Source: Octopus vulgaris | Lineage: Eukaryota | DNA: 64,000 nt | NCBI GenBank assembly: GCA_951406725.2 | Contig: OX597821.1 | Span: forward strand, 55,862,001-55,926,000 | Reading direction: 5' to 3' | Shown here: positions 15,785 through 22,747 of the stretch, piece by piece | Layout: each line of letters begins with the position of its first letter | Numbering within the stretch: position 1 is the first letter of the stretch | Translations under genes and position numbers: made by a program | Notes under the pieces: generated by a model | What the model was told of the DNA's origin: nothing | Database searches by the model: none | What the model saw: only the letters and a program-made list of their open reading frames with translations

Positions 15785-16635
15785 AATGCAAAATGCAACA
15801 CAAATCACAAAAGAGACTGCTAAGAAATGCGAAGCTTTACAAAACAACCACGAAACCAACGGTTGAAAAATGTGGACGCCCAAACTGTGGGATCTACCCC
15901 AACTTGAAGGCTCTGATTTCCTTTTCAAATAAGGAGAGATGTTCACAATTAAAACTAGTTTCACTTGTGCCTCTGAGAATATAATTTATGTAATAACCTA
16001 CTCGGGATATGGACACAACTATATTGGACAGACGCGTATGACCTCGAGACGGAGAACCACTCTACATAAAGAGCAAATCCGTTTCCTACAATACAGGCAA
16101 ATTCCTCTCAGTGAACATATAGAAAAATGTGCAGATAACATCAAACCAAACGTCACAGTCTTCCCCTTCTACCAGTGCAAAGACACAATTTCTCCACAAG
16201 AACGTTTAAATAAAGAAACATTTTTCATCGAAAATTACAGAACACTTCTTAATATGCACGCATAACCAACTTTTATCTTTTTACATATTTCAATTCACGA
16301 TTACATCACTGTATATAAATCCCCTCACTAAACAAGTTTTTTGAAACTTTTTGTGCATATATATATTCCCCTCCCCTTACCGACAGCTGAACATTTATCT
16401 CCCTTGCCCACAACAATAATAATAATAACGATAACCAATTACGTCCCCTTATTTTTCTACTTGTGAAGTCATTCACTCGTAAATATCATCACATACAACA
16501 TCGACTAAGAAAATACATATTCAAATAAGTAAACCATAATATCATGAATAGCGAAAGCGAAACCGGTCGATATATTAAAAATTATATTAAAACTATGTAA
16601 AGTGTGTGTATTTTCCTTATATTATTTCTTATGTA
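15785..16635 (+). mobile_element. Penelope-like element 3' part (GIY-YIG endonuclease pseudogene plus pLTR)
   Basis: KCGRPNC...FTCASENIIYVITYSGYGHNYIGQT...RRRTTLHKEQI...LNKETFFI (15939-16265), frameshifted upstream; downstream hammerhead; same family as 22531-23660. Confidence 0.9.
16539..16573 (+). ncRNA. Minimal type I hammerhead ribozyme, A3-U8 variant
   Basis: atatc-AUGAAUA-gc-gaaa-gc-GAAA-ccgg-UC-gatat: 5-bp stem I, GNRA-capped stem II, palindromic stem III. Confidence 0.75.
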
Positions 16636-16782
16636 TATATATATATATATAATTAATTAATAAGGGTGAGAGAGAATTAGATACTAATTTAATAGTATAT
16701 TTATTCAACACCAAGTGGCCTAGTGCTCCGAGAAACCTGGATTATTATAATATTTTATAACATATTATAATATTTTTACAAA

Positions 16783-16841
16783 ATAAATATAAGAGAGTGG
16801 TCACTATATTGCTAATATAGTGACCACTCTCTTATATTTAT
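16783..16841. repeat. Perfect hairpin (28-bp arms, 3-nt loop)
   Basis: ataaatataagagagtggtcactatatt-gct-aatatagtgaccactctcttatatttat. Confidence 0.95.
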
Positions 16842-17059
16842 ATATATATATATATATATATATATATACTACAAAATTAGAGAATGGAGAAACATACTTA
16901 AATCAATAAAACATCAACTATCCGATGATACCCAATCAATACTTTAATACACCATTACATATGAGTAGAGGCATTATACAAAAAGAGATATACATTAATA
17001 GTAAAAAGATAAAGAGATATAAGTAAAAAATTTCAAATATAATATGCAATTAATCAAAA

Positions 17060-17167
17060 CTGACAGCTGTTTCGGCAGTGAGGGCAGTCATACCTCATTT
17101 AACCTATAAGCCATAAAGGCAGGTATAAATGAGGCATTAACAAGGATGCCCCACGGCCTCTTCAGAG
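17060..17167 (-). ncRNA. Type I hammerhead ribozyme (mirror copy)
   Basis: Reverse complement of 18538-18645. Confidence 0.75.
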
Positions 17168-18537
17168 AATTAAATTAAATTTGTTATAATTGTGAAAAAT
17201 ATTATATAATCATATACATATAAATATAAAAATATAAAAATGTAAAATATAAAAACTTATACATCATAATGCTACACTTATATAATATAATACACATTGG
17301 TACAATAAAGGAAGGTAAACAGAACAAAATAAAACAAAATATATATCAGTGTATATATTAATATTAATATTAATAAGTACCGATATTATACATATTTGGC
17401 TAATATTTTTTTTTTTTTTTTTTAAAAAAACCTAACACATAGGGAGATGAAAAATAATAATTAAAACCATGGTTCAGTTCATAAAATTCTAAAGCTATAA
17501 AAGTTAATAAAAATTACTATTAATATTAATAATAATAATAATAATAATAATAATAATAATAATAGATACAGTTAAGTTTGCACAAAGTCCATCCTTTCAA
17601 GAACGAAATAACTGAGTTTAGAAATGCTGACCACTAGGTAAAGAAAATTTAGATTAATTCGATTGGCTATTGGTTTGAAATTTAAATCACAAAAGAAAAT
17701 TATACGGTTGGTTAGTCAAGGAACGCCAATATTCACACACGCATCTACAGATCAATCGCACATACACACATAGTTATATGTATATACATACACTTATACG
17801 CATACATAATCACAAGCAACAACTAGCACATAGATAAACAAAAAGGGAAGCAACTATGCTTCCCTTTTTGTTTATCTATGTGCTAGTTGTTGCTTGTGAT
17901 TATGTATGCGTATAAGTGTATGTATATACATATAACTATGTGTGTATGTGCGATTGATCTGTAGATGCGTGTGTGAATATTGGCGTTCCTTGACTAACCA
18001 ACCGTATAATTTTCTTTTGTGATTTAAATTTCAAACCAATAGCCAATCGAATTAATCTAAATTTTCTTTACCTAGTGGTCAGCATTTCTAAACTCATAGT
18101 TATTTCGTTCTTGAAAGGATGGACTTTGTGCAAACTTAACTGTATCTATTATTATTATTATTATTATTATTATTATTATTATTAATATTAATAGTAATTT
18201 TTATTAACTTTTATAGCTTTAGAATTTTATGAACTGAACCATGGTTTTAATTATTATTTTTCATCTCCCTATGTGTTAGTTTTTTAAAAAAAAAAAAAAT
18301 ATTAGCCAAATATGTATAATATCGGTACTTATTAATATTAATATTAATATATACACTGATATATATTTTGTTTTATTTTGTTCTGTTTACCTTCCTTTAT
18401 TGTACCAATGTGTATTATATTATATAAGTGTAGCATTATGATGTATAAGTTTTTATATTTTACATTTTTATATTTTTATATTTATATGTATATGATTATA
18501 TAATATTTTTCACAATTATAACAAATTTAATTTAATT

Positions 18538-18645
18538 CTCTGAAGAGGCCGTGGGGCATCCTTGTTAATGCCTCATTTATACCTGCCTTTATGGCTTATA
18601 GGTTAAATGAGGTATGACTGCCCTCACTGCCGAAACAGCTGTCAG
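18538..18645 (+). ncRNA. Type I hammerhead ribozyme with a long stem II
   Basis: ct-CUGAAGA-ggc...(branched insert including cctcattta/taaatgagg)...gcc-GAAA-cagctg-UC-ag. Confidence 0.78.
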
Positions 18646-20230: not shown

Positions 20231-20639
20231 GGCGAGTACTTTGTTCAAAAAACCATCCATCATCTGTCAGGCTATGGTGATTCCTGTGGACCTAATATCC
20301 ATAATAACCGTAATGTAACATCGAACAGCAATATTATTTGCAGGTTGATCAGTTCTCACGCTAATAGAGTTTGCCACGCCCAGAGATAATAACTAAATCG
20401 AGACCAGCATCATAGAGAGCGTCACTGAAGACCCCGGTACCCCCACTACGGATAATGAAATAATATAGATGCGGAGAGAGTGACCAGGCCTGCAATGTAT
20501 GAGAACACCAATACAAACCCCGCACCTCGAAATAATGACCAATCCAGAACCAACGACTTGGAGGAGGCATCTGCTGTTCCCAGTTCCGCCACCTCAGATG
20601 AGGACCAAGCAATCATCTTCGACACTGATAGAATGACCA

Positions 20640-21350
20640 GCCTCGTGCCATATGTTATCAGGAGTACGATTAAGGCCTCACCCTATGTTTATAAACATAT
20701 TGGTTCGGCGAGTACTTCGTTCAAGAAGCGTCTTCTTAATCACCAGTCATTCTTCAGAGTCCCAGAAAGACGGTTTGTTACGTCCCTTTCCCGCTATGTG
20801 TGACACCTCAAATATCAAGGGACCAAATATCAGGTGGAAGTTAATTGATTATCCGGCACTGAATATTAATGGAAATGGCCGTTGCAAGATCTGCATCGCG
20901 GTGAGAACCAAAATTCTTAAGAACTATAAAGAAGCCTGGCGTAAAGAAGTGTTTTCTAAATGTATCCACTTCAAGAACTACTTACTAGAAAACTGAATCG
21001 CCACGTTTGTTAGCTAGGCCTCTGCGAGTCTATAAAGGTTTTTTTCCCTATGATTAAGGAGAAATAACCCGTACTCATTAACGTTTTTTCGTATTCCTCG
21101 AGGTCTCAGCATTTCCTCACGTCTGCAACGTAGATATTTTAAACTTTTGTATTCATATAGAATCTGATCAGCTGTCCACAAGCTTTGTAGGAGCGAAACC
21201 TTGGGTAACTCTATATACAATTTTGTTGTAATAACTTCTGCTCTATTTTATTTTATATATTTTCTTTTATTAACTATATGTATATAGTCTTTTGTTTATT
21301 TCCGTAAACCTGCCTTCGTCTTTTGTCTATTTTCATAAAGCTTCCCGTTA
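20640..21350 (+). mobile_element. Penelope-like 3' fragment (GIY-YIG plus pLTR)
   Basis: HIGSASTSFKKRLLNHQSFF...TSLSRYV and NIRWKLI...RCKIC...EVFSKCIHFKNYLLEN; hammerhead-like motif downstream; ends at (TA)/(TATG)n. Confidence 0.8.
21155..21216 (+). ncRNA. Hammerhead-like motif (G8C, probably inactive)
   Basis: atatagaat-CUGAUCA-gct...agc-GAAA-ccttggg-UA-actctatat. Confidence 0.55.
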
Positions 21351-21960
21351 TATATATATATGTATGTATGTATGTATGTATGTATGTATGTATGTATGTA
21401 TGTATGTATGTACGTATGTATGTATGTATGTATGTATGTATGTATGTATGTATGTATGTATGTATAAGTATATAGATAGATAGAAAGATAGATAGATAGC
21501 TAAATAGATAGATAGATAGATAGATAGATAGATAGATAGATAGATAGATAAATAGATAGATAGATAGAAATGGTAAGACAACAAAACACTGAAAGAGACC
21601 TAGATATTATGTAAATAGAGGAATTTATCTGTAAATGTAACTATTCGGTAGCCATGATAAAACTCCGAGTTTCGGATGTCGTTATCTGGCCATCATATAT
21701 ATATGCAGATAGTTAGATTGATATTGATATAAATATACATATATATAGACATACATACATGTGTGTGCATGTGTGTGTGTGTGTGTGTGTGTGTGTGTGT
21801 GTGTGTGTGTGTGTGTGTGTGTGTGTGTGTGTATGTGCGCGTGTGTGTGTGTATATCAAAGCAAGCACATAAATGTGGAAGACGGTGGGTAAATAGTACT
21901 CGAATACACGAGGTAGTGTAATATGCCTTATTGTTAAAGCTACAAAAACATCACAAAAGA

Positions 21961-22004
21961 AAACTGCTACTCAGAGTTTCGTGTTCCCGTTCGTCGGACA
22001 GTTT
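21961..22004 (-). ncRNA. Type I hammerhead motif, U4C variant
   Basis: aaactgt-CCGACGA-acgggaacac-GAAA-ctctgag-UA-gcagttt: 7-bp stem I, stem III actc/gagt, weak stem II. Confidence 0.6.
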
Positions 22005-22707
22005 AGTTTGAGAATGAAACAAAAAAATTAACGTTATATGTATAAATATGCAATTTACCTTGACAGCGACACATTTGAAATTCGTTCTGTTTCTTTGGTC
22101 CTTTCAACTAACTGTCTTTTTAAGAACATAAAATTAAAATTATATTATGTAAAATCGAAGAAAAGCTTAAATCAAAAATTAGCTTTAGCTAGAAGGAATA
22201 AATATGTATACCCAGAGTAAATTAAGTAAAGGTAAAATAAATTTAATTTTAAAAATATAAGTCTGTTTATAATGACATATTCACTTACAGAGATCTAAAC
22301 AGCATAAAAATAAACACACGTACAAAAGTATACAAACATTTGCTTATACATACACAAGCACAAAACATATACATATATACACTAGACATACAAACGTTGA
22401 TACATGCATACACACATACATATAGACAGACATATACAGACAAAATATATATACTAATATGAATATAGGTTATCTACATATATATATATATATATATATA
22501 TATATATATATATATATATATATATATATAGATAAGAAAGTTTGTTTGGTAAAGCACGTGGGTGAATATATAAGAAAATAGTAAAGTGTGAAAAAACGAC
22601 AGAAGGCTTAAATGTTAAAAAATATATATATTTGTGTCAGAATGTCTGGAGAATATTGCAAAAATTTTTTTTCCTTTCCTTAAAATGACATAATTTTAAA
22701 ATTTTTA

Positions 22708-22747
22708 AAGAAATTACCGGTTTCGCGTGTAGCTTTTCAAATTTCTT
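22708..22747 (-). ncRNA. Minimal type I hammerhead ribozyme, U3-A8 variant
   Basis: aagaaat-UUGAAAA-gc-tacac-gc-GAAA-ccgg-UA-atttctt: 7-bp stem I, palindromic stem III. Confidence 0.78.

What the first reader, a model, noticed from the sequence alone, without database searches (positions are those of the whole stretch)
16539..22747. Two compensatory rewrites of the hammerhead C3-G8 core pair in sister Penelope elements
Seen: related GIY-YIG elements carry minimal hammerheads with the same gc...gc-GAAA-ccgg-UH layout, but the core reads AUGAAUA at 16544-16550 (A3-U8) and UUGAAAA at 22740-22734 (U3-A8) instead of CUGANGA. Their stem I sequences differ but both pair. Established: positions 3 and 8 form a Watson-Crick pair in the active fold. 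Inference: double covariation implies selection for catalysis, and searches fixed on CUGANGA would miss these motifs. I recall A3-U8 being rarer than U3-A8.
Basis: partly seen in the sequence, partly recalled or inferred. Interest (0 to 1): 0.72.

Follow-up and report, generated by a model that had tools for sequence, protein, structure and literature searches.

The report
Penelope hammerheads with swapped core pair
Two related jumping genes carry tiny hammerhead-shaped RNAs, predicted to cut themselves, in which the usual C-G core pair reads A-U in one family and U-A in the other, while sister families in the same genome use G-C or U-G, which likely means that selection keeps the pairing rather than the letters, although cutting is untested.

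Summary
Observation confirmed base for base. Both motifs are minimal type I hammerheads in the 3' repeats of truncated Neptune-like Penelope elements. They are family states, not one-off mutations. Of 3,106 genome matches to this layout, 901 are A3-U8 and 1,918 U3-A8; about 200 are U3·G8 and about 2% are unpaired singletons. A related family is G3-C8 (125 matches, control 8). Canonical C3-G8 dominates another hammerhead class (13,302) but is rare beside the ACCGGU stem III (154, mostly a tandem retrozyme). An RT-endonuclease tree favours a U3-A8 ancestor, one flip, then A-U and G-C as sisters (UFBoot 86; two alternatives not rejected). So these are probably not two separate rewrites of C-G. 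Against strict constraint: three young U3 subfamilies, including two U·G ones, lack a base at the foot of stem I. Cleavage is untested. U3-A8 in Penelope hammerheads is published, and U3·G8 appears in that paper's supplement. I found no natural A3-U8 or G3-C8 in print, but two key papers were unavailable. This scan already noted A3-U8 twice elsewhere in this genome and once in a phage. Verdict: new variant of a known kind, moderate interest.

The parts
16539..16573 (+). Site A minimal type I hammerhead, A3-U8 core: 5-bp stem I, core 16544-16550, 2-bp stem II with GAAA loop, ACCGGU palindrome, predicted cut after C16568
22708..22747 (-). Site B minimal type I hammerhead, U3-A8 core: 7-bp stem I, core 22740-22734, 2-bp stem II with UACAC loop, ACCGGU palindrome, predicted cut after A22715
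15782..16265 (+). Decayed, 5'-truncated linker and GIY-YIG endonuclease of the A3-U8 family (frameshifted; open frame 15933-16265; left end approximate)
16266..16634 (+). 3' UTR and pseudo-LTR of element A, holding the hammerhead and ending in (TA)n (right end approximate)
22884..23657 (-). 5'-truncated RT thumb, CX4CX2C linker and GIY-YIG of the U3-A8 family; 97-99% identical in protein to most fetched copies with the same loop, so a young family
22531..22883 (-). 3' UTR and pseudo-LTR of element B, holding the hammerhead and ending in (TA)n

Best explanation
The two motifs are family-wide A3-U8 and U3-A8 versions of the minimal hammerhead that sits in the terminal repeats of Neptune-like Penelope elements, and they likely self-cleave as dimers, with selection likely acting on the 3-8 pairing rather than on its letters. 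Shown: all other core bases, G10.1-C11.1 and H17 are canonical; stem I differs between families and pairs in both; stem III is only the palindrome ACCGGU. Predicted: two copies pair through that palindrome (6 bp) into a double hammerhead. Established: G8 acts through its 2'-OH and is held by pairing to base 3, so another pair can substitute. Inferred: the group fixed U3-A8 early (probably C-G to U·G to U-A), one lineage flipped the pair, and A3-U8 and G3-C8 then interconverted through G·U. Inferred role: cutting long read-through or tandem transcripts to unit length, probably slowly and with help from the element's protein.
For: Counts: 901 A3-U8, 1,918 U3-A8, 220 with G8/C8 (91 of first 100 listed are U3·G8), 34 U8 without A3, 31 A8 without U3, of 3,106; G3-C8 family 125, control 8; a further 4,091 A3/U3 matches with other stems II, control 116, mostly a second U3-A8 family in the first 100 listed. 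In 18 hand-picked family representatives the 3-8 pair holds in 18 of 18 with five pair types, and stem I covaries at all 5 pairs. Each state maps to a supported endonuclease clade. Cofolding two copies gives the double-hammerhead as the lowest-energy structure for both sites; ACCGGU duplex -8.3 vs ACGU -1.7 kcal/mol. A Penelope hammerhead loses cleavage with C3G or G8C and partly regains it with both, and needs the element protein (PMC11167929, passages). 9 site-B-family copies begin at about the predicted cut, against 2 and 3 true boundaries in two control windows.
Against: No cleavage data. Independent events are few: two double changes and two or three U·G origins on my trees, and the 18 representatives were chosen after seeing their states. 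Subfamilies with loops UAAAC, UAAAU and UAACU lack one base at the foot of stem I in 36 of 38 fetched copies yet spread recently, and the two young U3·G8 subfamilies are among them. Stem II is 2 bp, and in part of the G3-C8 family its second pair is C·A. In PMC11167929 hammerhead mutants did not affect insertion in vitro and no RNA-seq reads ended at the cut. The boundary excess is small and 4 of the 9 abut TA or A runs. The endonuclease-only tree gave a different grouping.
Confidence: 0.68

Rival explanations
1. Relaxed or dead ribozyme: the motif is kept for another job (protein binding, RNA dimerisation or a promoter element), and positions 3 and 8 drift in an AT-rich genome, so the pairing is partly coincidence.
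For: Stem I defects in three young subfamilies; cleavage dispensable for insertion in vitro; low activity of minimal Penelope hammerheads (PMC4209133); few independent events.
Against: G3-C8 runs against AT drift. Drift should make single-change, unpaired families commoner than double changes, yet the only single-change families seen are U·G, the one pairing outcome among six possible single changes from U-A. The 3-8 pair belongs to the active fold.
Confidence: 0.2
2. Mixed case: sites A and B and the G3-C8 family are active, but the U3·G8 and stem-I-defective subfamilies are inactive and spread without cleavage or with help in trans.
For: The two young U3·G8 subfamilies sit on the stem-I-defective background and nest inside the U3-A8 clade (UFBoot 94).
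Against: U3·G8 also occurs in an older family with other stems (L163, L164) and in a Saccoglossus Penelope hammerhead. This reading overlaps the best explanation for the two window sites.
Confidence: 0.35
3. A3 was selected because A3-U4-G5 forms an AUG start codon for ORF1, and U8 followed.
For: The core of site A begins AUG; a GTAAGT donor-like site follows in some subfamilies; in an Anolis element the ORF starts inside the hammerhead.
Against: The frame stops after 18 codons; the ORF1 ATG lies 172 nt downstream, out of frame; no conserved AG acceptor lies between in the junction copies among 30 loci read.
Confidence: 0.04

Closest known systems
Minimal type I hammerheads in pLTRs of metazoan Penelope-like elements (Cervera and De la Pena 2014, PMC4209133), including the Schistosoma mansoni U3-A8 families (about 1,300 hits) and a U3·G8 example in Saccoglossus
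   Same: Position in the pLTR after an RT-GIY-YIG ORF; type I topology; palindromic helix III; G10.1-C11.1; predicted dimer; U3-A8 and U3·G8 cores.
   Different: A3-U8 and G3-C8 are absent from the representatives of that paper's Fig. S3 (56 by its legend). Here stem II is 2 bp, the extra base after A9 is missing, and the palindrome is 6 nt rather than 4.
Natural U3-A8 hammerheads (Perreault et al. 2011, PMC3088659)
   Same: Natural covariation at 3-8; 2-bp stems II reported as common.
   Different: Only U3-A8, in a few examples; here four states sit in one retroelement group, three of them as multi-hundred-copy families.
PAc Poseidon hammerhead of Anolis (PMC11167929)
   Same: Penelope hammerhead whose cleavage depends on 3-8 pairing (engineered G3-C8 partly rescues).
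   Different: Natural state is C3-G8; its ORF starts within the ribozyme; different Penelope clade.
Small dimeric Penelope hammerheads of Lunse, Weinberg and Breaker (RNA Biol 14:1499)
   Same: Short palindromic stem III and cleavage as dimers, as cited in PMC6765202.
   Different: Paper not held; I saw only its citation, so it may already list A3-U8 or G3-C8 variants.

Membership tests
Type I hammerhead ribozyme | Core U4 G5 A6, A9, G12 A13 A14, A15.1-U16.1, H17 | tested here: met
Type I hammerhead ribozyme | Complementary bases at 3 and 8 | tested here: met
   A-U and U-A; 18 of 18 representatives pair
Type I hammerhead ribozyme | Consensus letters C3-G8 (CUGANGA) and an Rfam hammerhead match | tested here: not met
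   a consensus spelling, not the structural requirement, since U3-A8 is accepted in PMC3088659 and PMC4209133
Type I hammerhead ribozyme | Three helices with stem I open | tested here: met
   Stems I and II in the monomer centroid; helix III only in the predicted dimer
Type I hammerhead ribozyme | Self-cleavage after H17 | not testable with these tools
   Only assembled contigs were available; genomic boundary test weak
Type I hammerhead ribozyme | Stem I to loop II tertiary contact of full-length hammerheads | not tested
   Loop II varies widely between subfamilies, so no conserved contact is apparent
Penelope minimal hammerhead (PMC4209133) | Lies in the pLTR downstream of an RT-GIY-YIG ORF, in tandem or inverted copies | tested here: met
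   (L145 has hammerhead-ORF-hammerhead plus an inverted copy)
Penelope minimal hammerhead (PMC4209133) | Palindromic 15.2-16.2 and loop 3; G10.1-C11.1 | tested here: met
Penelope minimal hammerhead (PMC4209133) | Long helix II and an extra base between 9 and 10.1 (consensus traits, with exceptions in that paper) | tested here: not met
   2-bp helix II and no extra base; closer to that paper's small palindromic helix III variants
Neptune clade of Penelope-like elements | RT followed by C-terminal GIY-YIG | tested here: met
   RVT_1 above cut-off in the 811-aa ORF2 of L151; GIY-YIG weak in the window and annotated on many of 120 listed homologues
Neptune clade of Penelope-like elements | CX2-5CxxC linker before the endonuclease (shared with Nematis, PMC8557442) and (TA)n targets | tested here: met
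   CX4CX2C in element B; both ends in (TA)n
Neptune clade of Penelope-like elements | RT phylogeny with named Neptune references | not tested
   Homologues carry no clade names, hence 'Neptune-like'

The most novel reading that the evidence does not exclude
One Penelope lineage has walked the hammerhead's catalytic 3-8 pair through U-A, U·G, A-U and G-C, including the first multi-hundred-copy natural A3-U8 and G3-C8 families, and could do so because its 6-bp ACCGGU dimer helix, or its protein chaperone, pays for weaker core pairs. About 7,000 such motifs in this genome are invisible to CUGANGA descriptors, so Penelope families reported as lacking hammerheads may need re-screening.
Probability: 0.3. 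Interest if true: 0.65.

Novelty: new variant of a known kind. Interest (0 to 1): 0.45.

Why it matters
It supplies natural, phylogenetically ordered support for a tertiary pair so far established by structure and mutagenesis, with states beyond the published U3-A8. It gives matched natural constructs to test whether Penelope hammerheads are selected for cleavage, which is an open question, and whether a longer dimer helix III buys tolerance at 3-8. It also shows that fixed-core searches undercount these motifs by thousands per genome. It is not a new mechanism: exchangeability of the pair is known in vitro.

Tried and rejected
Rfam scan: no hammerhead, only microsatellite-driven matches. Monomer folding z-scores uninformative; two designed-structure energy evaluations failed on a length error and are not used. 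'C3-G8 is nearly absent from this genome' was my early reading and is wrong: 13,302 canonical motifs of the GAAA-CG-UH class exist; no RT-EN homology to this group was found upstream of the copies checked. In that class non-C3 cores number 1,578 against a control of 430, and the first 100 listed are mostly single-change decay. AUG-as-start idea rejected. RNA: no RNA holder listed; 14 runs guessed to be RNA hold the site-B family as contigs only, which cannot show ends or strand. No read-laying was obtained for the site-A family. Cut-site boundary test for the A family: 29 matches, most of them a subfamily with an insertion after an upstream hammerhead, so uninformative. Endonuclease-only tree (43 of 84 rows; 5 misassigned or chimeric rows, rows under 140 aa and surplus copies dropped) disagreed with the RT-EN trees (40 rows, 18 of them). 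Papers not held: Lunse et al., Przybilski and Hammann 2007, Hammann et al. 2012, Scott et al. 2013.
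Full report
Observation. Both motifs are present as described. Site A: 16539-16573 (+), core AUGAAUA, 5-bp stem I, cut predicted after C16568. Site B: 22747-22708 (-), core UUGAAAA, 7-bp stem I, cut predicted after A22715. Each has a 2-bp stem II and the palindrome ACCGGU in place of a helix III. The layout occurs twice in the window, never in 300 shuffles, and 3,106 times in the 2.8-Gb genome G000 against 0 for the reversed pattern. Rfam finds no hammerhead here. Monomer folding is no better than shuffled sequence.

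Context. Both sit about 150-290 nt after GIY-YIG remnants and before a (TA)n junction. Full-length relatives show hammerhead, ORF1, RT-endonuclease ORF2, hammerhead, often with an inverted truncated copy. ORF2 carries RVT_1 and a CX4CX2C linker, the Neptune/Nematis trait in PMC8557442 (passages). I call them Neptune-like because no named references were available. Element B belongs to a young family; element A to an older one about 56-60% identical in protein.

Family states. Within the GC...GC/CCGG layout: A3-U8 901; U3-A8 1,918; G8 or C8 220, of which the first 100 listed are 91 U3·G8, 1 C3-G8 and 8 unpaired; U8 without A3 34 (18 G·U, 9 C·U, 7 U·U); A8 without U3 31. About 2% are unpaired and these are scattered over subfamilies. 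With the core left free, the first 100 of 839 A-family matches have A3 in 97 and U8 in 99; 26 carry some scattered core change, many of them G12A at a CpG. The first 100 of 1,994 U-family matches are 86 U3-A8, 9 U3·G8 and 5 single changes. Other stem II types add 4,091 A3/U3 matches (control 116), led in the first 100 listed by a second U3-A8 family. Following a lead from an earlier scan note, I found a G3-C8 family of 125 (control 8); 12 of its 30 fetched loci have the related endonuclease upstream. C3-G8 beside CCGG totals 154 (control 23), mostly a 360-bp tandem retrozyme. One U3-A8 copy, L217, is 84% identical to that retrozyme over 374 nt; CpG decay could explain its A8. In the separate GAAA-CG-UH class C3-G8 has 13,302 matches and other cores are mostly decay. 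The swaps are therefore concentrated in the group with the longer palindrome.

What the counts do and do not show. Few mismatches among copies is expected from amplification alone. Selection is read from changes between families. On 18 representatives that I picked by hand after seeing their states, 3-8 pairs in 18 of 18 with five pair types, and all five stem I pairs change on both sides (relatedness inflates the shuffle control). The RT-endonuclease tree, rooted on unnamed homologues, is (second U-A family, (site-B U-A family with nested U·G, (G-C, A-U))), SH 0.94 (40 rows) and UFBoot 86 (18 rows). The AU test, run with 5,000 replicates, fewer than the program advises, rejects only the grouping preferred by the endonuclease-only tree; the other two alternatives stand (p 0.055 and 0.136). 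The simplest reading is a U3-A8 ancestor, one flip that had to cross a mismatch, and A-U/G-C exchange through G·U. That C3-G8 came first is inferred from its general conservation; the outgroups' hammerheads were not read. This amounts to two double changes and two or three U·G origins with no unpaired family: persuasive but small numbers.

Mechanism. Established: G8 acts through its 2'-OH (PMC6155905, passages) and is held by pairing to C3, with partial rescue of G8C by C3G (PMC8495972, passages). In a Penelope hammerhead the same rescue holds and cleavage needs the element protein (PMC11167929, passages). Predicted here: two copies of either site cofold into a double hammerhead through ACCGGU, a duplex of -8.3 kcal/mol against -1.7 for ACGU. 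I infer slow, dimer- and protein-assisted cleavage of tandem transcripts, and suggest, untested, that the stronger dimer helix permits non-C-G pairs. A weak genomic hint: 9 site-B-family copies begin at about the cut against 2 and 3 true boundaries in control windows, though 4 of the 9 abut TA or A runs and the patterns are not equally strict.

Against. Subfamilies with loops UAAAC, UAAAU and UAACU lack one base at the foot of stem I in 36 of 38 fetched copies, and they include the two young U·G subfamilies, so some successful lineages may not cleave. Sites A and B themselves have intact stems I. Part of the G3-C8 family has a C·A second pair in stem II. PMC11167929 found cleavage dispensable for insertion in vitro and no reads ending at the cut. 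The sequencing runs available were contigs with no RNA holder on record. The idea that A3-U4-G5 is the ORF1 start codon fails: the frame closes after 18 codons, ORF1 starts 172 nt on and out of frame, with no conserved acceptor between.

Literature. PMC4209133: read parts 1-2 of 4 of the text and parts 1-2 of 3 of supplement 2; supplement 1 could not be searched. It reports about 1,300 U3-A8 motifs in Schistosoma and lists a U3·G8 core in Saccoglossus; no A3-U8 or G3-C8 in Fig. S3. PMC3088659 (passages): natural U3-A8. PMC7229834, PMC6765202, PMC3884650 and bioRxiv 10.64898/2026.07.22.740005: passages only. Searches for A3-U8 wording and related terms (listings seen) returned no natural A3-U8 or G3-C8. 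Lunse et al. and Przybilski and Hammann 2007 were not held, and either could lower the novelty. Hammerhead numbering and the dimer model are standard knowledge as given in PMC4209133.

Verdict. Real and family-wide; works like a Penelope minimal dimeric hammerhead; cleavage unproven. U3-A8 is known. A3-U8 and G3-C8 as amplified natural families, and four states in one lineage, appear unreported within my reach. The scan had already noted A3-U8 twice in this genome; those notes are not independent support. New variant of a known kind, interest 0.45.

Noticed in passing
L145 minus strand about 4213-4207; also L146, L150, L151, L156, L147, L331: Full-length elements have ORF1 overlapping the RT-endonuclease ORF2 in the -1 frame with a U UUU UUA slippery heptamer kept in the U-A, U·G and A-U families: likely programmed frameshift. 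PMC8557442 Fig. 1 notes ORF1 frameshifts in some Penelope elements.
   Followed up: partly
L269 and L284: In 2 of 30 loci of the canonical GAAA-CG-UH class, an ORF resembling a restriction-like-endonuclease non-LTR retrotransposon (motif recalled, untested) ends 230-490 nt upstream of the hammerhead.
   Followed up: no
L117-L143: A 359-360 bp tandem retrozyme with C3-G8 and the same ACCGGU stem III; an older-looking relative, L217, reads U3-A8.
   Followed up: partly
L201/L202: An inverted pair in which one copy reads A3-U8 on the AAGAAAU stem I background and the other U3-A8: possibly a second origin of A3-U8; single case.
   Followed up: no
window 16859-18846: A near-perfect 2-kb palindrome with a 4-nt centre at 17853-17856, flanked by (TA)n on the left.
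   Followed up: no
window 14520-14790 and about 15380-15720: Two short hairpin insertions; the first is a fold-back of the pLTR tail of a U3-family relative without its hammerhead.
   Followed up: no
window 24125-24713 (-) and 20637-20996 (+): Fragments resembling the endonuclease of another Penelope-like clade (motif recalled; no relevant Pfam hit).
   Followed up: no
L145 and L173, between hammerhead and ORF1 start: CACGTG occurs twice in this 5' UTR in both the U-A and A-U families despite low similarity: candidate promoter elements.
   Followed up: no
window about 44900-49300: A 4-kb array of roughly 23-nt repeats.
   Followed up: no
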